Notes under the pieces: model-generated
Seen by the model: the letters and a program-made list of their open reading frames with translations, nothing else
What the model was told of the DNA's origin: nothing
Database searches by the model: none
Program-made: the position numbers and the translations under genes
Origin: an uncultured Gammaproteobacteria bacterium
GTDB lineage: Bacteria > Patescibacteriota > Microgenomatia > Daviesbacterales > UBA10151
DNA length: 64,000 nucleotides
NCBI GenBank assembly: GCA_964446685.1
Contig: CAYUPO010000001.1
Span: forward strand, 38,912-102,911
Reading direction: 5' to 3'
Shown: positions 14,727 to 37,920 of the stretch, in pieces
Position numbering within the stretch: the stretch's first letter is position 1
How the letters are laid out: each line of letters begins with the position of its first letter

Positions 14727-14863
14727 GTCATTTCGAGTGTAACGAGAAATCCCTGCCTCGAGCGAAGTCGAGAGGTCAAGACTAGATGACCAAGCTCCTG
14801 CTTCGTAAAAAGGAACAAACCTGGTTTTAATCATGAGATCTCTCGCTCCTCGCTCGAGATGAC
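14727..14863. mobile_element. MITE-like GC-rich palindromic element, copy 1 (termini gtcatttcgag ... ctcgagatgac)
   Basis: gtcatttcgagtgtaacgagaaatc...ggttttaatcatgagatctctcgctcctcgctcgagatgac. Same termini at 32619-32708 and 21469-21618 (inverted). Locally ~55% GC in a ~35% GC genome. Confidence 0.6.
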
Positions 14864-21468: not shown

Positions 21469-21760
21469 GTCATGTCGAGCCCTTCGACTTCGCTCAGGAC
21501 AGGCGAGGAGCGACCCGTCCACATCGCTTCACGAAGTGATGCGGGTGGAGAGATCTAATTATTAAAAACTGGTTAGTTCTTTGTAAGTCTTGAGATTTCT
21601 CACTTCGTTCGAAATGACAGAAAAATAGATTTTGGCGACCCCTTCTGTCATCTCGAGTCCTTCGACTTCGTTCAGGGCCTGAATGACAGAATAAAGCAGA
21701 TTTTGACAACTCCTTCTGTCATCTCGAGCGAGGAGCGAGAGATCTCTAGATTAAAACTAA
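21469..21760. mobile_element. Cluster of three MITE-like elements of the GTCATYTCGAG family (full inverted copy ~21469-21618; 41-bp mini-palindrome ~21647-21687; solo right end ~21718-21757)
   Basis: Reverse strand of 21469-21618 reads gtcatttcgaacgaagtgagaaatc...ctcgacatgac. gtcatctcgagtccttcgacttcgttcagggcctgaatgac is palindromic. gtcatctcgagcgaggagcgagagatctctagattaaaac is near-identical to the rc of the 32.7 kb copy end. ORF 21494..21709 lies entirely inside these repeats. Confidence 0.6.
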
Positions 21761-31421: not shown

Positions 31422-31754
31422 TTAGTATCTATTTCTCCCATTATCGTAACCTCCGCCACCCCCACGGTTGTTAGAGCCATTTCTGTCTCCTCCACCTTGT
31501 GGACGTTCTTCACGAGGTCTGGCTACTGAAACACCGAGTCTTCGACCATCTTGGTCTGATCCTTCAAGTGCTTTGATTGCTGCTTGCGCTTCATCATCAT
31601 TAGCCATTTCTACAAATCCGAATCCTTTGCTTTGTCCAGTAAATTTATCAGTTATTACCTGAGCTGACTGAACTGTTCCAAAAGCTTCAAACATTGCTTG
31701 TAAATCTGAGCTCGTTTTAGCATAGGTTAATCCACCTACGAATAATTTTGTCAT
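31422..31754 (-). CDS. RRM-type RNA-binding protein with C-terminal Gly/Arg-rich (RGG) tail
   Basis: RNP-2 KLFVGGL and RNP-1 KGFGFVEM. Tail RPQGGGDRNGSNNRGGGGGYDNGRNRY. Confidence 0.8.
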   Translation of the reverse strand: MTKLFVGGLTYAKTSSDLQAMFEAFGTVQSAQVITDKFTGQSKGFGFVEMANDDEAQAAIKALEGSDQDGRRLGVSVARPREERPQGGGDRNGSNNRGGGGGYDNGRNRY

Positions 31755-32559: not shown

Positions 32560-32708
32560 GTCATTTCGCAAGAAATAGCTTGCTCATTCTAGCTTGACCA
32601 GAATCATTTCAATAAAACGTCATTTGAAGTGTAGTGAGAAATCTTAATACTAGTCAGGAATTAACTTGGTTTTAATCTAGAGATCTCTCGCTCCTCGCTC
32701 GAGATGAC
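32560..32708. mobile_element. MITE-like element copy (partial left-end duplication 32560-32618 + complete ~90-bp element 32619-32708)
   Basis: gtcatttcgcaagaaat... then gtcatttgaagtgtagtgagaaatc...ttggttttaatctagagatctctcgctcctcgctcgagatgac. Termini identical to the 14.7 kb copy. Confidence 0.6.
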
Positions 32709-32731: not shown

Positions 32732-34036
32732 CTAATCGTCATCATCATCTTCCTGAGCTACATCTTCCATGTCTTTTGGTAAAGCTGGATTAATCAAAAA
32801 TCCTTTGAGATCTTTGCGGCCGACTATCAGAGGATATTTTAGATGACTTCTATCAACAACAGTAGCTGTTGAGACGATCTCTTTGCCGTGTAAAGTAAAT
32901 TTAATTTTTACGGCTGGTCTTGAACCAACCCCACTGGCGGATTTTATCATAATCTGCCTGTCCAAAATTTCTAATCCAAGCTCTTTGACCATTTTATGAT
33001 CCAGTGAAGTCCGGTAAGCGCCAGTATCAAGTTTGGCTAAATAAATCTTAGTTTCGTCCTCTTTCATAAATGTCACCTGCTCTACAGCATCCAAGATAAT
33101 TAATGAGTTTTCCTCTTCTTCGGATTCACTAAACAAAGACCTGGCCAGCTCTATTCCTCTTTCCGCTGATGGAATTGGTAAATTTTCGATTCTCTCAAGC
33201 CTGGTCCGCATTGAAGCCTGATTAGCTATCTGGATCTGTAATCCGGGTCGGGCATTAATTTCCAATACCAAAGGGCCTTTGTTTTTATCTATCACTATAT
33301 CCACACCGGCGTATCCCAGTCCTGAAGCTTCCTGAGCACGGGAAGCCATTAGTAAGATTTTTTCCCACTCTGGTATTCTCATGCCGATGATTGTGGCCAG
33401 CTTTTTTTGACTTTCAGGAGAGGTTGGATTTTTTATTAAAGCATGAAAAGCTTCACCATTTCGTAAATTGAGACCGACTGCAATAGCGCCCATATGAATA
33501 TTGGCTTTGCCTTCAGATTGTTTAGTTGGCAGTCTTAACATCGCCATCACCGGGACTTTATTAAAAACAATCACCCGGATATCAGGCAGACCAACATCAG
33601 TCATTTTCTTGAAAAAAGGATCAGGTCTGATCAACTCCTCAACATAAGCGATATCCGGCAGAGCTTGCAGTGAATAAACGCCATCTAAAACGTCAAAGAT
33701 ATGCGATTCGATATCCGCCCGGGAATATTTTTTGCCGGAAGTTGTAATCCCTTTTCTGCCATCCCAGCTTTCAAAAGCCAGAATTCCTTCACCACCATAC
33801 CCTCTGGATGGTTTGATCACAAAGCCATTTGTCGGTAAAGTCCAGTCAAAATCACGAATACTTTCCGGGGAATTAAAGGTAGTTATCAGCTGACTGGTCG
33901 GGACTTCATGCTTGATTAGCAGTTTTTTGGTCTCGATTTTATCATCCGCTCTTTTTTTAGCGCGGGCTTTGTTAAATTTACGTATATAAATGAAATTTCG
34001 GGCGTTCATCCCGAGAGCGCTGGTACTAATTGCCAT
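32732..34036 (-). CDS. RimK-type ATP-grasp amino-acid ligase fused to C-terminal retropepsin-like (DUF785) aspartyl protease domain
   Basis: ATP-grasp core (FVIKPSRGYGGEGI..., GYAGVDIVIDKNKGPLVLEINARPG). C-terminal ~120 aa with retroviral-type DTG motif (IYLAKLDTGAYRTSLD) and GRKDLKGFLINP. Confidence 0.65.
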   Translation of the reverse strand: MAISTSALGMNARNFIYIRKFNKARAKKRADDKIETKKLLIKHEVPTSQLITTFNSPESIRDFDWTLPTNGFVIKPSRGYGGEGILAFESWDGRKGITTSGKKYSRADIESHIFDVLDGVYSLQALPDIAYVEELIRPDPFFKKMTDVGLPDIRVIVFNKVPVMAMLRLPTKQSEGKANIHMGAIAVGLNLRNGEAFHALIKNPTSPESQKKLATIIGMRIPEWEKILLMASRAQEASGLGYAGVDIVIDKNKGPLVLEINARPGLQIQIANQASMRTRLERIENLPIPSAERGIELARSLFSESEEEENSLIILDAVEQVTFMKEDETKIYLAKLDTGAYRTSLDHKMVKELGLEILDRQIMIKSASGVGSRPAVKIKFTLHGKEIVSTATVVDRSHLKYPLIVGRKDLKGFLINPALPKDMEDVAQEDDDDD

Positions 34037-34955
34037 TGGTTTTTATTGCCTGAAAGCGGAAGTACTCGGTCAATCTGAGACCAAAATATCTTCCGATCAG
34101 TAAGTTGAGCGGGATAAGCAGCAGGATTAATTCAGGATAAAGCAAAACTGCGTCCCGCAGCGGATTGTATTGCAAAATGGCATACCCTAAAAGTCCTATG
34201 CCAACTGTCAGAATGGTGATATTCATAGTTTCGATCAGACTTCTTTGTAACTGTAAAGACACAATTTTGTCTGATAATAAAATGAAGACCAATATTGGGA
34301 AAATCGAGATGTACTGAACGGATAAAATACCCATCCTGGCACTAAATACGAGTGATAAAAAGACCATAATTGAGACCAAAAAGAGTGATAAAGCCATTTT
34401 TGGCAACTGCATGATTCTGACCTGCTTTAAGATAATCCGGGATGTTAATGAAGCAATTAAAATACTAATAATTAATATCGTTCCCGCAGTTAGACCTGTG
34501 GCAATCAAAGAGACAGATAAAATAATTGGTACCAGCATCTCCATACTTGGCAAACCAATCACCAACCTGATAAAAGCGATAATACTGGCTAAAACAGGCA
34601 GTAATAAAATAAGCACTATCGTGTTGGCAGGCACTCCCACAGCTACTGCATACTGTACAGTAAAAGCCATAAAATTTATTGGATTTAGACTGCCTTCGGG
34701 ACGCTGCTGAAACAGTTTTAAGACAGCTTCTTTCTCCTGGGTCTCCTCAGGCTTTGTAATATCATCTTTTTTAAGATCAGCCAAAAGTTGAGCCAAAGAA
34801 GCCGAATCAGTCGCAATGGTGGCAGATTCACTTGCTGAAGCAGTTGCTTCAAGAGAAGGTGATGGTGAAAATCGCAACGGATTTTGTACGGCCTCTACCG
34901 AACCTGGCAAAACAAAAAACAGGCTGAAGGCCAAAATTAATAGGGGGAGTTTCAT
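34026..34955 (-). CDS. Signal-peptide-bearing multi-TM membrane protein translationally coupled to the RimK-retropepsin gene
   Basis: Signal MKLPLLILAFSLFFVLPGSVEA. ~90 aa Ala/Ser/Thr/Glu-rich ectodomain. About 7 TM helices. 11-bp overlap with downstream ATP-grasp start. Confidence 0.5.
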   Translation of the reverse strand: MKLPLLILAFSLFFVLPGSVEAVQNPLRFSPSPSLEATASASESATIATDSASLAQLLADLKKDDITKPEETQEKEAVLKLFQQRPEGSLNPINFMAFTVQYAVAVGVPANTIVLILLLPVLASIIAFIRLVIGLPSMEMLVPIILSVSLIATGLTAGTILIISILIASLTSRIILKQVRIMQLPKMALSLFLVSIMVFLSLVFSARMGILSVQYISIFPILVFILLSDKIVSLQLQRSLIETMNITILTVGIGLLGYAILQYNPLRDAVLLYPELILLLIPLNLLIGRYFGLRLTEYFRFQAIKTNGN

Positions 34956-35034: not shown

Positions 35035-36030
35035 TCATTTAGATTCAAAATAATTGTATACCGCTTTTGAGACATCTGCTATCCGATCTTCGGCTGCAGC
35101 GGGCGCTGGTGACTCTGACAGAACTACTATTATATATTCCCCCTTTTTGCCGTAGACAATTCCGGCATCATGAGTAAACATTCCCAGCTCCCCAGTTTTA
35201 TGAGCCACAGTCACACCTTCGGGCAAGGCTGCCGGTAATTTATTATTAAGTCTCTGTTTTTTGAGCAGTTCCAGCATTTTGTCGGTATTTTCCTGATTTG
35301 CTAGCTGGCCAGAACGAAGTTTTTCATAAAATTTGAGCATATCCAGGGCTGTAGTCTTTGGGTCCCCTCCAACAGCTGAGTCTTTAAAACCGTTTTCTGT
35401 TAGAAACTGCCTGACTGTTGAAAGCTTATTTTTTTCAGTTAAGAGCATTGCTGCGTAATTGTGTGAGATAGTGATCATTTGGGTTAAAGCCTGATTGACA
35501 GTCATGGTGATACCTCCGGAAGTTAACTCAGCATTTTCCGGGTCAATTCCAAAAGTTTGGTTTAAATCGGCTATAGTCCGACTCATCTTCTCTTCTGGAT
35601 CCAGCTCCCCTGACTGAATTTTGTGAAATGACTCAGCCATTACCCAAAGTTTATAAAGTGATCCGGTTTCAAATGATTTATTTTCATTTAAATAATATTC
35701 TTCACCAGTGCTGAGGTTTTTAATAGCTACTGCATACGATCCTTTGGTTCCCTCAAGTGCTGTCGCCACTATTTTGCCAAGTGGAGAAAGCTGTACTTCA
35801 GGAGATGGCGACGGCTGTGTTGGTTCAGGGGTCATGGAGGCTGTTTGGTTAGTTCCTAAAACCTGAACTTGGATTGAATCAGGTTCTACATCTTTCCATA
35901 ACCTGTATGCTTCAACTTTTTCCAAACTAAAATAAACTCCATAACTCATTATTCCCAGAAGAACTAAAAAAACTAATGGTGTTGCAGATGATCTGGGTGA
36001 TTGTCGCTTAAGGTGCACAGAGCGGCGCAT
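35035..36030 (-). CDS. Membrane-anchored class A beta-lactamase-like serine hydrolase
   Basis: SxxK (ETGSLYKLWV), SxN (ISHNYAAM), KTG (AHKTGELG) motifs in canonical order and spacing. N-terminal TM. Confidence 0.6.
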   Translation of the reverse strand: MRRSVHLKRQSPRSSATPLVFLVLLGIMSYGVYFSLEKVEAYRLWKDVEPDSIQVQVLGTNQTASMTPEPTQPSPSPEVQLSPLGKIVATALEGTKGSYAVAIKNLSTGEEYYLNENKSFETGSLYKLWVMAESFHKIQSGELDPEEKMSRTIADLNQTFGIDPENAELTSGGITMTVNQALTQMITISHNYAAMLLTEKNKLSTVRQFLTENGFKDSAVGGDPKTTALDMLKFYEKLRSGQLANQENTDKMLELLKKQRLNNKLPAALPEGVTVAHKTGELGMFTHDAGIVYGKKGEYIIVVLSESPAPAAAEDRIADVSKAVYNYFESK

Positions 36031-36372: not shown

Positions 36373-37920
36373 ATGTACAACGATAAACCAAACTATAGCT
36401 CCTCAAGACGCGGAGCATCATCATCAATCAGATCATCTTCCCAACCTTCAAGTGGTGGAGGATATTTTCGTAAACCAGGCGGAACTATGAGAACCACTAG
36501 TGGATCTTATAAAACACGTCCAGCCGGAGAAAATACGAATTCATATAAAACTCCGTCCCAATCATCAGCTAATTCATATTCAAGCAGACCTTCAACCAAT
36601 AGATCAGAAAGTACCGGTAACTCTTACTCAACCAGTCCGAGACCAAGCAGTGGATCTTCTTACCAAAACAGAGGATCAAATGCCGGATACCAAAGATCAT
36701 CTACCGGTTCATATGGCAGACCATCAAATGGATATTCACGTTCATCATCTTATGGCTCAAATAGTGGTGGCTATAATTCCAGACCAAGATTTGCTCCCCG
36801 AAGAGGACCAAAGACTCAGCTGGGTGGAGATGTTTCCATTTTTATTAAAAAGGCCCAGGTTTCAGAAGTAGAAGAAGTTATTCCACATAAAAGCTTTGAT
36901 GAATTTGATATCGCTGCTGCTTTAAAAGAAAATATTGCTCAAAAAGGTTTTACTCATCCAACACCGGTGCAGGATCAGGCAATTGAGCCAATTCTTGAAG
37001 GACGGGATTTAATTGGTTTGGCAAATACCGGAACTGGTAAAACAGGAGCTTTTTTGATACCTATTATCGACCGTATTTTTAAAGACCGTAATCACAAAGC
37101 TTTAATTATTGCTCCAACCAGAGAACTGGCAGTGCAGATCAATGATGAAATGAGATCTCTGGCAGCTGGTATGAAAATTTATTCAGCCCTAGTTATTGGC
37201 GGAGCAAATATGTACAGACAGATTCATGAAATCAGACGTAGTCCGCATGTAGTGATCGGAACCCCAGGAAGACTGAAAGATTTAGTTAAACAAAATGTGC
37301 TTCATTTGGAAGATTTTTCTATTATAGTCCTGGATGAAGTTGATCTGATGGTTGATATTGGATTTATCGAAGATGTTAAATACTTTATCTCAATGCTACC
37401 AAAGGAAAGACAGTCACTTTTCTTCTCAGCCACAATCTCACCCAAGATCAGAACTATTTTAGAAGCTTTTGTGAAAGATGCAGTGACTGTTTCTATTAAG
37501 AAACAAGTTTCTTCCGAAAATATTGAGCAAGATATCATCAGGGTCATCAATCCGGCTAAAAAAGTGGATCAGTTGCATGAGCTGCTGATCAAAGATGGCT
37601 TTGATAAAGTGTTAGTCTTTGGCAGAACAAAACATGGTGTTGAAAAGTTACAACAGGAGCTGACAACCAGAGGATTTAGAGTAGGTGCTATTCATGGAAA
37701 TAAATCACAGGGTCACAGACAACGAGTTTTACAAAGCTTTAAAAGAAACGAACTTCAGATATTACTTGCAACAGATGTAGCATCCAGAGGAATTGATATT
37801 GATAATGTTTCACATGTGATTAATTACGAATTACCTGAAACTTATGAAGACTATATTCACCGGATTGGAAGAACCGGACGAGCCGGAAAAACCGGATCTG
37901 CATTTACTTTCATCGGTTAA
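36373..37920 (+). CDS. DEAD-box ATP-dependent RNA helicase with ~150-aa N-terminal Ser/Tyr/Gly/Arg/Asn-rich low-complexity domain
   Basis: Q-motif GFTHPTPVQ, motif I ANTGTGKT, Ia PTRELA, II DEVD, III SAT, VI HRIGRTGR. N-terminus ...NSYKTPSQSSANSYSSRPSTNRSESTGNSYSTSPRPSSGSSYQNRGSNAGYQRSSTGSYGRPSNGYSRSSSYGSNSGGYNSRPRFAPRRG. Confidence 0.85.
   Translation: MYNDKPNYSSSRRGASSSIRSSSQPSSGGGYFRKPGGTMRTTSGSYKTRPAGENTNSYKTPSQSSANSYSSRPSTNRSESTGNSYSTSPRPSSGSSYQNRGSNAGYQRSSTGSYGRPSNGYSRSSSYGSNSGGYNSRPRFAPRRGPKTQLGGDVSIFIKKAQVSEVEEVIPHKSFDEFDIAAALKENIAQKGFTHPTPVQDQAIEPILEGRDLIGLANTGTGKTGAFLIPIIDRIFKDRNHKALIIAPTRELAVQINDEMRSLAAGMKIYSALVIGGANMYRQIHEIRRSPHVVIGTPGRLKDLVKQNVLHLEDFSIIVLDEVDLMVDIGFIEDVKYFISMLPKERQSLFFSATISPKIRTILEAFVKDAVTVSIKKQVSSENIEQDIIRVINPAKKVDQLHELLIKDGFDKVLVFGRTKHGVEKLQQELTTRGFRVGAIHGNKSQGHRQRVLQSFKRNELQILLATDVASRGIDIDNVSHVINYELPETYEDYIHRIGRTGRAGKTGSAFTFIG

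What the first reader, a model, noticed from the sequence alone, without database searches (positions are those of the whole stretch)
32732..34955. Candidate peptide-modification system: RimK-type ATP-grasp fused to a retropepsin-like (DTG) protease, translationally coupled to a signal-peptide multi-TM partner
The 434-aa protein joins an N-terminal RimK-like ATP-grasp amino-acid ligase to a C-terminal aspartyl-protease domain with the retroviral D-T-G-A catalytic motif (KLDTGAYRT). In Pseudomonas these are separate genes (rimK and rimB), and comparative genomics has linked RimK-like ligases to DUF785 peptidases and 7TM partners. Here ligase and protease are fused. The upstream gene, overlapping by 11 bp, encodes a secreted-ectodomain 7-TM-like membrane protein. 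Ligate, trim and membrane sensor or transporter looks like a compact, uncharacterised peptide-tagging or small-peptide-synthesis module. A GTCATYTCGAG MITE copy abuts its 3' end.
Basis: partly seen in the sequence, partly recalled or inferred. Interest (0 to 1): 0.7.

Follow-up and report, generated by a model that had tools for sequence, protein, structure and literature searches.

The report
Fused ligase-protease with 7TM membrane partner
A two-gene unit in a candidate-phyla-radiation (Patescibacteria) bacterium encodes a RimK-like amino-acid ligase fused to a retrovirus-type protease, next to a seven-helix membrane protein; it is a compact, untested variant of the Pseudomonas rloABC stress-tolerance system, and in related systems the same protease sits outside the membrane rather than inside.

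Summary
A 309-aa protein (signal peptide plus 7TM) and a 434-aa ATP-grasp–retropepsin fusion overlap by 11 nt on the minus strand.

Profile and fold searches support both halves of the fusion. The N-terminal half is an ATPgrasp_ST/RloC-type, RimK-like ligase. The C-terminal half has a DUF785/RloA/RimB-type retropepsin fold with an invariant K-x-D-T-G-A motif and the two arginines that RloA uses to bind polyglutamate. The partner is the 7TM_transglut domain of RloB without its transglutaminase-like ectodomain.

The pair is therefore a two-gene variant of rloABC (Lormand 2025), which is itself related to RimK/RimB. It is not rare: the 120 listed database homologues are all full-length fusions, and the named ones are Patescibacteria. 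The 7TM gene lies directly upstream in 71 of 72 evaluable loci.

Close relatives shuffle the same domains:
- signal peptide–protease–7TM followed by an unfused ligase;
- a protease–7TM–ligase triple fusion;
- ligase–protease–MATCAP.

The protease is therefore cytoplasmic here and extracytoplasmic elsewhere.

The most likely function is a membrane-docked Glu-rich peptide (poly-α-glutamate) synthetase with a built-in trimming protease. The substrate and the role of the 7TM protein are inferred. It is a new variant of a known kind, of moderate interest.

The parts
34026..34955 (-). Gene for the 309-aa membrane partner (short form of the RloB 7TM domain)
   Evidence: ORF. Pfam 7TM_transglut at 4.4e-23. 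NCBIfam RloB NF052267 matches only its C-terminal positions 311-505 of 508. Found directly upstream of the fusion gene in 71 of 72 evaluable loci.
34890..34955 (-). Signal peptide, residues 1-22 (MKLPLLILAFSLFFVLPGSVEA)
   Evidence: Sequence and hydropathy. An N-terminal hydrophobic segment is present in 108 of 120 partner homologues.
34629..34889 (-). Extracytoplasmic region, residues 23-109: a variable E/A/S/T-rich linker followed by a conserved juxtamembrane segment (D65, T67, P69, E70, R85, N94)
   Evidence: Conservation profile and composition. No transglutaminase-like domain was detected.
34044..34628 (-). 7TM core, residues 110-304, with conserved cytoplasmic motifs IMQLPK (181-186) and GRYFGLRxxExxRF (288-301)
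   Evidence: Pfam match over residues 111-304. Seven hydrophobic helices, with 10 K/R on the predicted inside against 2 on the outside (inference). The C-terminal motif is present in 120 of 120 homologues.
34026..34036 (-). 11-nt overlap of the partner's stop codon with the fusion gene's start codon (translational coupling)
   Evidence: Sequence. In related loci the overlap is 14 nt in 32 cases and 11 nt in 7.
32732..34036 (-). Gene for the 434-aa ATP-grasp-retropepsin fusion protein
   Evidence: The 120 listed database homologues are all full-length. Both domains lie in one ORF in 87 of 90 loci.
33122..34036 (-). ATP-grasp ligase domain, residues 1-305, RloC/ATPgrasp_ST type. K75, the G79-G84 loop, D246, E259 and N261 are invariant.
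   Evidence: PF14397 at 1.1e-62 and TIGR02291 at 5e-80. AF2 model with pLDDT around 90. Foldseek best match is RimK at 2e-11. D246, E259 and N261 align with RimK D248, E260 and N262 and are invariant in the family.
33101..33121 (-). Inter-domain linker, residues 306-312 (EEEENSL)
   Evidence: pLDDT below 50 in the AF2 model. Sequence.
32777..33100 (-). Retropepsin-like aspartic protease domain, residues 313-420. The catalytic motif K335-L-D337-T-G-A is coded at 33017..33034. R373 and R396 are invariant.
   Evidence: Pfam PF05618. Profile hits to 9g59, 9g58 and 2pma. The fold search returns only retropepsins. Invariant columns. K-x-D-[TS]-G-A is kept in 82 of 87 loci and 120 of 120 homologues.
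32735..32776 (-). Acidic C-terminal tail, residues 421-434 (KDMEDVAQEDDDDD)
   Evidence: Family-wide feature. Tails are 42% D/E against 10% in the rest of the protein. Median net charge is -7, negative in 112 of 117. The last residue is Glu in 46 of 117. The tail is absent from unfused ligases of type-B systems.
32619..32708 (-). MITE-like repeat element of about 90 bp (GTCATCTCGAG...CTTCAAATGAC), 24 nt downstream of the stop codon. Not part of the system; it may act as a hairpin or terminator.
   Evidence: Motif enrichment. The first 40 nt are identical to the copy at 21718. Full elements with terminal inverted repeats lie at 14727-14863 and 21469-21618.

Best explanation
This is the Patescibacteria (CPR) two-gene form of the Rlo-type ligase / retropepsin / 7TM module.

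Proposed mechanism:
- The 7TM protein sits in the membrane with its N-terminus out and C-terminus in. Its conserved cytoplasmic motifs, the IMQLPK loop and the G-R-Y-x-G-L-R-x-x-E-x-x-R-F tail, dock the soluble fusion protein at the inner face of the membrane.
- The RloC/RimK-like ATP-grasp domain uses ATP to add acidic residues, most likely L-glutamate through alpha-peptide bonds. It either makes free poly-alpha-glutamate or extends an acidic C-terminus.
- The cis-fused retropepsin domain must pair with a second copy to form the two-Asp active site. It cleaves the Glu-rich product and so limits or recycles it. This copies what RimB does for RimK and RloA does for RloBC.
- The 7TM domain either passes the product across the membrane or gates the ligase.

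By analogy with rloABC, the physiological role is probably cell-envelope or osmotic homeostasis.

Shown here: the domain identities, conservation of the catalytic and substrate-binding residues, the obligate gene pairing, the sidedness of the domains, and the alternative fusions that tie the three domains together.

Inferred: glutamate as the substrate, the nature of the acceptor, the role of the 7TM domain, and the physiology.
For: Identity of the parts:
- ATPgrasp_ST at 1.1e-62, TIGR02291 at 5e-80, PF05618 above its cut-off, and 7TM_transglut at 4e-23.
- The ligase fold is closest to RimK, the poly-alpha-L-glutamate synthetase. The metal-binding D246, E259 and N261 are invariant.
- The protease fold matches RloA/DUF785 first and retroviral proteases next.

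Substrate-binding residues:
- K335, D337, R373 and R396 align with the AK.DTGA, ERP and DRS motifs of RloA.
- The K-x-D and R-(23)-R spacings equal those of RloA K46/D48 and R114/R137. Those residues coordinate polyglutamate, and R114A and R137A have the strongest effects on RloA's cleavage activity (PMC12239564).
- These residues are invariant across the family.

Cytoplasmic location of the protease:
- The fusion proteins have no signal peptide or TM segment, and the protease domain has no cysteines in 116 of 120 homologues. This matches cytosolic RimB rather than secreted RloA.

Functional linkage of the three domains:
- The partner gene lies directly upstream in 71 of 72 loci, mostly overlapping by 14 or 11 nt, in otherwise unrelated neighbourhoods.
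- Rosetta-stone fusions exist among close relatives: signal peptide-protease-7TM followed by an overlapping unfused ligase; a protease-7TM-ligase triple fusion with 7 TM helices between the protease and the ligase; and ligase-protease-MATCAP carboxypeptidase.

Literature:
- RimB binds RimK, stimulates it, and cleaves poly-Glu tails (PMC11957791).
- Loss of RloB or RloC suppresses the defects caused by loss of the RloA proteases.
Against: - No biochemical data exist for any RloC/ATPgrasp_ST ligase, so glutamate specificity rests on homology to RimK and on the protease's basic channel.
- The ligase scores below NCBIfam's TIGR02291 equivalog cut-off (268.8 against 314.2) and far below the RimK cut-off.
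- The flap region between the catalytic Asp and the first conserved Arg is about 30 residues shorter than in RloA (36 against 66-68 residues), so specificity could differ.
- If the product is exported through the 7TM domain, it is unclear why the CPR form keeps the protease inside when relatives and RloA keep it outside.
- Pfam's name for the ligase family ('sugar-transfer associated') points to a different class of acceptor.
- The window contains neither rpsF nor any protein with a run of 8 or more Glu.
Confidence: 0.55

Rival explanations
1. A reversible protein-tail modification switch, RimK/RimB-style. The ligase polyglutamylates the C-terminus of one specific protein: ribosomal protein S6, its own acidic tail, or another cytoplasmic target. 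The fused protease removes the tail. The 7TM protein is a membrane or envelope sensor that tunes the balance between the two activities and transports nothing.
For: - RimK extends the Glu-Glu end of RpsF and RimB trims it.
- Every fusion protein ends in an acidic tail, with Glu as the last residue in 46 of 117. The tail is missing when the protease is not fused in cis. This fits self-priming or a pseudo-substrate.
- In this family the protease is cytoplasmic, like RimB.
- The partner's ectodomain is modular, as in sensors: absent, low-complexity, or PKD plus an unassigned domain.
- The ligase-protease-MATCAP fusions recall the tubulin TTL / carboxypeptidase tail code.
Against: - In relatives and in RloABC the protease is outside the membrane while the ligase is inside. 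That is difficult to reconcile with a purely cytoplasmic protein target.
- The ligase is not a RimK orthologue.
- No target could be identified, and rpsF is not in the window.
- No tail has a D/E run longer than 6, below the 8 Glu that RloA needs.
Confidence: 0.25
2. An envelope-decoration enzyme. The ATP-grasp adds amino acids to a lipid-linked sugar, a peptidoglycan precursor or a surface-polymer precursor at the membrane. The 7TM protein presents or flips that precursor, and the protease edits the peptide part.
For: - Pfam names PF14397 'sugar-transfer associated ATP-grasp'.
- rlo mutants show cell-shape and beta-lactam phenotypes consistent with cell-wall defects.
- Ddl and cyanophycin synthetase are among the structural neighbours.
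- A class-A beta-lactamase/PBP-like gene lies directly upstream in this window.
Against: - That neighbour is present in only 9 of 90 related loci. No glycosyltransferase or Mur gene is consistently linked.
- The protease keeps the polyglutamate-coordinating K and R residues of RloA.
- The closest fold and sequence relatives are peptide ligases (RimK), not sugar-modifying enzymes.
Confidence: 0.1
3. A RiPP/graspetide-type peptide natural-product cluster, or an anti-phage defence module.
For: - ATP-grasp plus protease plus membrane protein resembles a RiPP maturation and export set.
- PsnB-type graspetide ligases appear lower in the fold list, at about 1e-8.
- PADLOC gives marginal hits: PDC-M08B at 0.0015 and PDC-M07A at 0.0043.
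Against: - No conserved small precursor gene accompanies the pair. Apart from the two genes, the neighbourhoods differ completely.
- The ligase groups with RimK/RloC, not with graspetide ligases.
- The PADLOC hits are far from significant for membership and probably reflect the shared retropepsin fold.
- The pair sits among housekeeping genes.
Confidence: 0.03

Closest known systems
RloABC of Pseudomonas aeruginosa / P. fluorescens (Lormand et al. 2025, mBio, PMC12239564)
   Same: The same three domain families are present: an ATPgrasp_ST/TIGR02291-type cytoplasmic ligase (RloC), a DUF785/RimB-like DTGA retropepsin (RloA) and a 7TM_transglut membrane domain (RloB). The genes are adjacent and co-directional. 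The Lys and two Arg that coordinate polyglutamate in RloA are conserved.
   Different: - Two genes rather than three.
- The protease is fused to the C-terminus of the ligase, so it is cytoplasmic. It has no signal peptide and no disulfide cysteines.
- The flap region is about 30 residues shorter.
- An acidic tail is added.
- The membrane protein lacks the inactive-transglutaminase ectodomain.
- The host is a monoderm-type CPR bacterium, whereas the paper reports 96% of RloB hits in Proteobacteria.
- Scores are below the NCBIfam equivalog cut-offs for RloA, RloB and TIGR02291.
RimK / RimB (/RimA) ribosomal protein S6 polyglutamylation system (PMC11957791)
   Same: An ATP-grasp alpha-L-glutamate ligase works with a cytosolic retropepsin that binds it and trims poly-Glu. 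The fusion seen here is the covalent version of that documented RimB-RimK interaction. RimK is the best structural match for the ligase half.
   Different: - The ligase is not a RimK orthologue: TIGR00768 scores 59.9 bits against a cut-off of 143.4, and PRK10446 scores 26.7 against 331.
- It appears to lack the N-terminal domain of about 85 residues found in RimK, since query residue 20 aligns with RimK residue 87.
- An obligate 7TM partner is present, which Rim systems do not have.
- RpsF as target is untested.
Poly-gamma-glutamate synthase PgsBCA/CapBCA with the depolymerase PgdS/CapD (from general knowledge; families unrelated)
   Same: A working analogy only. A cytoplasmic ATP-dependent amide ligase is coupled to membrane subunits that extrude a polyglutamate, and a dedicated hydrolase acts on the product. 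This fits the relatives and RloABC, in which the protease is outside.
   Different: The protein families are different (Mur-ligase-like PgsB rather than an ATP-grasp). The linkage there is gamma, whereas alpha is expected here. In the CPR form the hydrolase is inside the cell.
Cyanophycin synthetase CphA / cyanophycinase CphB
   Same: An ATP-grasp polymerase of an amino-acid polymer is paired with a dedicated cytoplasmic depolymerase. CphA is among the top structural neighbours.
   Different: CphA is a multi-domain enzyme of about 880 aa that makes a branched Asp-Arg polymer. It has no membrane partner. Its peptidase is a serine enzyme, not a retropepsin.
Tubulin tail code: TTL/TTLL ligases with MATCAP and CCP carboxypeptidases
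   Same: ATP-grasp ligases add C-terminal Tyr or poly-Glu, and peptidases remove them. Some relatives of this protein carry a C-terminal MATCAP (PF08014) domain (P0284 and P0353). There is a weak TTL Pfam hit.
   Different: That system is eukaryotic and cytoskeletal. The window protein has no MATCAP domain. The resemblance is at the level of enzyme logic only.

Membership tests
Rlo system (rloABC) | RloC-type ATP-grasp ligase (Pfam ATPgrasp_ST PF14397) | tested here: met
   212.2 bits against a cut-off of 31.4, covering residues 13-285 and profile positions 2-278 of 278.
Rlo system (rloABC) | Ligase reaches the NCBIfam TIGR02291 (alpha-L-glutamate ligase-like) equivalog cut-off | tested here: not met
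   268.8 bits against a cut-off of 314.2. It is a relative but not an equivalog.
Rlo system (rloABC) | Retropepsin-like DTGA peptidase of the DUF785/RimB-like family, with a retropepsin fold | tested here: met
   PF05618 scores 29.5 bits against 27. The domain profile hits 9g59, 9g58 and 2pma. The Foldseek top 50 are all retropepsins, with RloA/DUF785 first. The RloA1-3 equivalog cut-offs are not reached (34.6 against 210).
Rlo system (rloABC) | Polyglutamate-coordinating residues of RloA (K46, R114, R137) conserved | tested here: met
   K335, R373 and R396 are invariant and align with the AK.DTGA, ERP and DRS motifs of the RloA structures with identical spacings. The mapping onto RloA-Pa numbering is inferred from spacing and from the paper.
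Rlo system (rloABC) | Peptidase is a separate, secreted protein (signal peptide, conserved disulfide) | tested here: not met
   Here it is fused C-terminally to the ligase. There is no hydrophobic segment in the fusion proteins, and the protease domain has no Cys in 116 of 120 homologues.
Rlo system (rloABC) | Membrane protein with the 7TM_transglut domain | tested here: met
   PF14402 at 4.4e-23. NF052267 (RloB) positions 311-505 of 508 are matched.
Rlo system (rloABC) | Inactive transglutaminase ectodomain on the membrane protein | tested here: not met
   There is no match to the first 310 positions of the RloB model and no transglutaminase Pfam hit. The long forms in relatives carry PKD plus an unassigned domain instead.
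Rlo system (rloABC) | Role in hypo-osmotic tolerance, cell shape, biofilm formation and beta-lactam tolerance | not testable with these tools
   These are phenotypes known only for P. aeruginosa.
RimK/RimB system | RimK-family ligase (TIGR00768 / PRK10446) | tested here: not met
   59.9 bits against 143.4, and 26.7 against 331. RimK is nevertheless the best structural match.
RimK/RimB system | Cytosolic retropepsin that associates physically with the ligase | tested here: met
   The two are covalently fused in one ORF in 87 of 90 loci, with no export signal.
RimK/RimB system | [quoted passage not shown] | not testable with these tools
   No rpsF-like ORF is present in the window.
Known anti-phage defence systems (PADLOC) | Significant match to a PADLOC system protein | tested here: not met
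   Only marginal hits, at 0.0015 and 0.0043.

The most novel reading that the evidence does not exclude
The 7TM_transglut domain is a dedicated conduit, or a membrane-state-gated scaffold, for a ligase-made poly-alpha-glutamate. That would make these modules the alpha-linked counterpart of the PgsBCA poly-gamma-glutamate machinery. The protease lies outside the membrane in RloABC, in the signal peptide-protease-7TM forms and in the triple fusion, but inside in the CPR form, which would mean that the polymer is handled on both faces. The CPR version, with its internal depolymerase and acidic (primer or pseudo-substrate) tail, would then be a self-limiting glutamate/polyglutamate buffer. Such a buffer could adjust osmolyte load or surface charge in these very small cells that lack an outer membrane.
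Probability: 0.15. Interest if true: 0.75.

Novelty: new variant of a known kind. Interest (0 to 1): 0.5.

Why it matters
rloABC was described only in 2025. It affects osmotic tolerance, cell shape, biofilm formation and antibiotic tolerance in P. aeruginosa, but the product of RloC and the role of RloB are unknown. The authors also regarded the system as essentially proteobacterial.

The locus studied here shows that a stripped-down two-gene version is widespread in Patescibacteria. It has no transglutaminase-like domain, and the protease is welded to the ligase. Close relatives fuse the same three domains in other orders, including a single-chain protease–7TM–ligase protein.

These natural fusions have three consequences:
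- They are strong genomic evidence that the ligase, the protease and the 7TM domain act as one machine.
- They fix the membrane topology: ligase inside, N-terminal ectodomain outside.
- They show that the transglutaminase-like domain is dispensable for the core function.

They also offer simpler proteins for biochemistry. A soluble 434-aa enzyme carrying both activities could be used to find the ligase's substrate.

The fact that the protease is inside in one lineage and outside in others constrains any model of what the system makes and where that product goes.

Tried and rejected
- **Original comparative-genomics paper.** Iyer et al. 2009 (PMC3268129) is not held. Whether it already lists this fusion could not be checked, and what I say about it rests on the Pfam family names and on memory.
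- **AFDB structure search.** The afdb50 library was unavailable, so the fused architecture could not be mapped onto named organisms that way.
- **Single-sequence search against PDB.** It gave only marginal protease hits (0.025). A family profile and a separate domain model were needed.
- **Full-length Foldseek.** The list was swamped by ATP-grasp hits, so the C-terminal domain was modelled separately.
- **Promoter and terminator scan.** It was uninformative: 13 promoter-like sites against 10.9 expected. I make no claim about co-transcription with the upstream beta-lactamase-like gene.
- **Beta-lactamase-like neighbour as a fourth component.** Rejected, because it is present in only 9 of 90 loci.
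- **Defence-system membership.** Rejected.
- **RpsF as a testable substrate.** rpsF is not in the window.
- **Genome-collection scan.** It returned only 3 loci, two of them labelled 'uncultured Gammaproteobacteria'. Named homologues of the fusion and of the window's DEAD-box helicase are all Patescibacteria, for example Daviesbacteria at 69-72% identity. I therefore treat the Gammaproteobacteria label as a probable mis-assignment.
- **Short 'protease-only' representatives.** About 95 of the 150 representatives are short protease-only sequences. They could not be sorted into true standalone proteins and contig-end fragments, so no frequency of standalone forms is claimed.
- **Literature searches.** Searches for the Pfam and TIGRFAM identifiers, and for CPR plus retropepsin, found nothing beyond the two Pseudomonas papers.


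Full report
**1. Observation**

The stop codon of the upstream gene and the ATG of the downstream gene share 11 nt (…ACCAATGGCAATTAGT…).

Pfam assigns the 434-aa protein an N-terminal ATPgrasp_ST domain (PF14397, 1.1e-62, residues 13-285). It also gives a C-terminal Zn_protease/RimB-like match (PF05618, 29.5 bits against a cut-off of 27) and sub-threshold gag-asp_proteas and Asp_protease_2 hits. The 309-aa protein matches 7TM_transglut (PF14402, 4.4e-23).

NCBIfam points to a named system:
- TIGR02291, 'alpha-L-glutamate ligase-like', at 5e-80;
- RloA3 and RloA2, retropepsin-like peptidases;
- RloB, 'osmotic stress tolerance membrane protein', matched only over its C-terminal 7TM part (positions 311-505 of 508).

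All of these score below the equivalog cut-offs.

**2. The ligase half**

A 51-sequence family alignment (A1) gave an AlphaFold2 model with mean pLDDT 84 and two well-defined domains joined by a disordered linker at residues 306-312.

Foldseek against the PDB ranks RimK, the poly-α-L-glutamate synthetase / S6 glutamate ligase, first at about 2e-11. Cyanophycin synthetase, LysX/ArgX and Ddl follow.

HMMER aligns D246, E259 and N261 with RimK D248, E260 and N262. From memory, these are the metal-binding triad of RimK. They are invariant in the family, as are K75 and the G79-G84 loop.

The protein is not a RimK orthologue: TIGR00768 scores 59.9 bits against a cut-off of 143.4. Residue 20 aligns with RimK residue 87, so it appears to lack the N-terminal domain of about 85 residues found in RimK. 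That last point is an inference.

**3. The protease half**

A profile of the C-terminal domain alone (A2) hits these chains:
- 9g59_A, P. aeruginosa RloA2, at 2e-7;
- 9g58_A, P. fluorescens RloA, at 1.6e-5;
- 2pma, Legionella DUF785, at 2.2e-5;
- weak tails to Ddi1 and a foamy-virus protease.

A separate model of residues 305-434 (pLDDT 84.3) returns only retropepsin folds among the top 50 Foldseek hits. DUF785/RloA come first, then HIV-1, foamy-virus, FIV, XMRV and EIAV proteases and Ddi1.

K335-x-D337-T-G-A340, R373 and R396 are invariant. They align with the AK(L/M)DTGA, ERP and DRS motifs of RloA. The K-x-D and R-(23)-R spacings equal those of RloA K46/D48 and R114/R137. According to Lormand et al., those residues coordinate an octaglutamate substrate, and R114A and R137A have the strongest effects on RloA's activity.

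The segment between the catalytic Asp and the first Arg is 36 residues here against 66-68 in RloA, so the flap is about 30 residues shorter.

K-x-D-[TS]-G-A is retained in 82 of 87 related loci and in 120 of 120 database homologues.

The fusion proteins have no hydrophobic segment, and the protease domain has no cysteines in 116 of 120 homologues. Lormand et al. note that the disulfide cysteines are conserved in periplasmic orthologues but not in cytosolic RimB. The protease is therefore cytoplasmic here.

Every family member ends in an acidic tail:
- 42% D/E against 10% in the rest of the protein;
- median net charge of -7;
- Glu as the last residue in 46 of 117;
- no D/E run longer than 6.

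**4. The membrane partner**

The partner has these parts:
- a Sec-type signal peptide, residues 1-22;
- a variable E/A/S/T-rich stretch followed by a conserved juxtamembrane segment, up to about residue 109;
- seven hydrophobic helices, residues 110-290.

Ten K/R residues fall in the predicted cytoplasmic loops and tail, against two outside. This gives an N-out, C-in topology (inference).

Two cytoplasmic motifs stand out: IMQLPK at residues 181-186, and G[RK][YWF]xG[LIM]RxxExxxF at the C-terminus. The second is present in 120 of 120 homologues.

The ectodomain varies across relatives. It can be absent (218-240-aa proteins), about 60-195 aa of low-complexity sequence, or a PKD domain plus an unassigned region of about 180 aa (511-569-aa proteins). 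It never gives a transglutaminase Pfam hit.

**5. Distribution and co-conservation**

The fusion is common. All 120 listed hits in the 5.8-billion-protein search are 424-458 aa and cover 94-100% of the query. The named ones are Levy-, Curtiss- and Daviesbacteria, Saccharimonadia, and 'Patescibacteria group'. The named closest relatives of the window's DEAD-box helicase are also Patescibacteria and Daviesbacteria.

In four unrelated neighbourhoods, a 290-305-aa 7TM_transglut gene lies directly upstream and overlaps the fusion gene by 14 nt.

Across 90 loci:
- Both domains lie in one ORF in 87. The three exceptions are an unfused Rickettsiales relative and two contig-end cases.
- The partner lies directly upstream on the same strand in 71 of 72 evaluable loci. 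The overlap is 14 nt in 32 loci and 11 nt in 7.

No other gene is consistently linked. The class-A β-lactamase-like gene upstream in this window recurs in only 9 of 90 loci.

**6. Alternative architectures**

Searching the protease-domain profile against 1.84 billion cluster representatives gave 2028 hits at E ≤ 1e-3 and 517 at E ≤ 1e-10. Among the best 150:

- **(A)** ligase–protease fusions like the one here.
- **(B)** 18 proteins with a signal peptide or membrane anchor, one or two retropepsin domains, and then the 7TM domain. One is from a Chloroflexi MAG. In two loci this gene is followed, with an 8- or 17-nt overlap, by an unfused 287-288-aa ATPgrasp_ST gene that lacks the acidic tail.
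- **(C)** a single-chain anchor–retropepsin–7TM–ATP-grasp protein (P0296, 657 aa). It has seven helices between the protease and the ligase. Its 7TM C-terminal motif lies about 20 residues from the ligase's N-terminal LGMNxRN motif.
- **(D)** ligase–retropepsin–MATCAP (PF08014) proteins of about 800 aa.

These Rosetta-stone fusions tie the three domains into one functional unit. They also fix the topology as ligase inside and N-terminal ectodomain outside. The protease is outside in types B and C and in RloABC, but inside in type A.

**7. Mechanism**

The evidence fits a membrane-docked ligase that builds Glu-rich, probably poly-α-glutamate, peptides or tails. A dimerising retropepsin cuts those products. 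The 7TM domain either passes the product across the membrane or regulates the enzymes.

What is known from Pseudomonas:
- RimB binds and stimulates RimK and cleaves poly-Glu.
- RloA cleaves runs of 8 or more Glu.
- Loss of RloB or RloC suppresses the defects caused by loss of the RloA proteases.

Still inferred: glutamate specificity, the acceptor, the role of the 7TM domain, the role of the acidic tail (primer or pseudo-substrate), and the physiology.

The main rival is a RimK/RimB-like protein-tail switch with the 7TM protein acting as a sensor. Envelope decoration, RiPP biosynthesis and anti-phage defence are less likely.

**8. Comparison and novelty**

The domain families, and the association between them, are known. 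Evidence for that comes from the Pfam names derived from earlier comparative genomics, the rloABC paper of 2025, and the RimK/RimB work.

The locus fails several defining features of rloABC as described. The peptidase is not secreted, there is no transglutaminase-like ectodomain, there are two genes rather than three, and scores fall below the equivalog cut-offs. It is also not a RimK/RimB system: it has no RimK orthologue, and it has an obligate membrane partner.

I found no paper in the held library that discusses the CPR fusion or the alternative architectures. The key 2009 comparative-genomics paper could not be read.

I classify it as a new variant of a known kind, of moderate interest. 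The gene itself is an ordinary, widespread database entry. The comparative pattern it leads to is more useful: a minimal two-gene core, a dispensable ectodomain, and a protease on either side of the membrane. That pattern bears on how Rlo-type systems work.

Noticed in passing
window 14727-14863, 21469-21618, 21647-21760, 32619-32708, 60033-~60110: A family of short MITE-like elements of about 90-150 bp with GTCAT(Y)TCGAG... terminal inverted repeats. The motif occurs 9 times in the window (one mismatch allowed) against 1.26 expected. The copy after the fusion gene shares its first 40 nt exactly with the copy at 21718.
   Followed up: partly
window 35035-36030 (-): A class-A beta-lactamase / PBP-like gene (PF13354, 1.4e-45) with an N-terminal membrane anchor lies 79 bp upstream of the 7TM gene on the same strand. 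A homologous neighbour is present in only 9 of 90 related loci, so it is a sub-clade-specific neighbour and not part of the module.
   Followed up: yes
P0284 and P0353 (about 800 aa; relatives found): Relatives carry ATP-grasp-retropepsin-MATCAP (PF08014, tyrosine-carboxypeptidase-like) triple-domain proteins. This puts a ligase, an endopeptidase and a carboxypeptidase in one chain, which recalls the eukaryotic tubulin-tail enzymes.
   Followed up: partly
L091 6412-7695: In one type-B locus (signal peptide-2x retropepsin-7TM followed by an unfused ligase), a glutamate dehydrogenase gene directly follows the ATP-grasp gene. This is a single case and only an anecdotal link to glutamate metabolism.
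   Followed up: no
L077, L079, L081, L084 (partner genes of 511-569 aa): Some 7TM partners carry a signal peptide, a PKD domain and a region of about 180 aa with no Pfam match in place of the short ectodomain. That region may be an undescribed ectodomain.
   Followed up: partly
window 36373-37920 (+) and 31422-31754 (-): A DEAD-box helicase has an S/N/G/R-rich low-complexity N-terminus of about 150 aa. A small RRM-type RNA-binding protein has an RGG-rich tail. Both are unusual-looking extensions for bacterial proteins.
   Followed up: no
L001, L002 (genome contigs records CAZWRN010000044.1 and CAYOMO010000089.1): Contigs encoding 77%-identical copies of the fusion are labelled 'uncultured Gammaproteobacteria bacterium'. 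All named homologues of this gene and of the window's helicase are Patescibacteria, so the label is probably a taxonomic mis-assignment in the MAG records.
   Followed up: partly
window 33101-33121 (-), residues 306-312: In this lineage the inter-domain linker itself contains a run of four glutamates (SESEEEENSL). Most relatives have a non-acidic linker (AExFSxKV).
   Followed up: no
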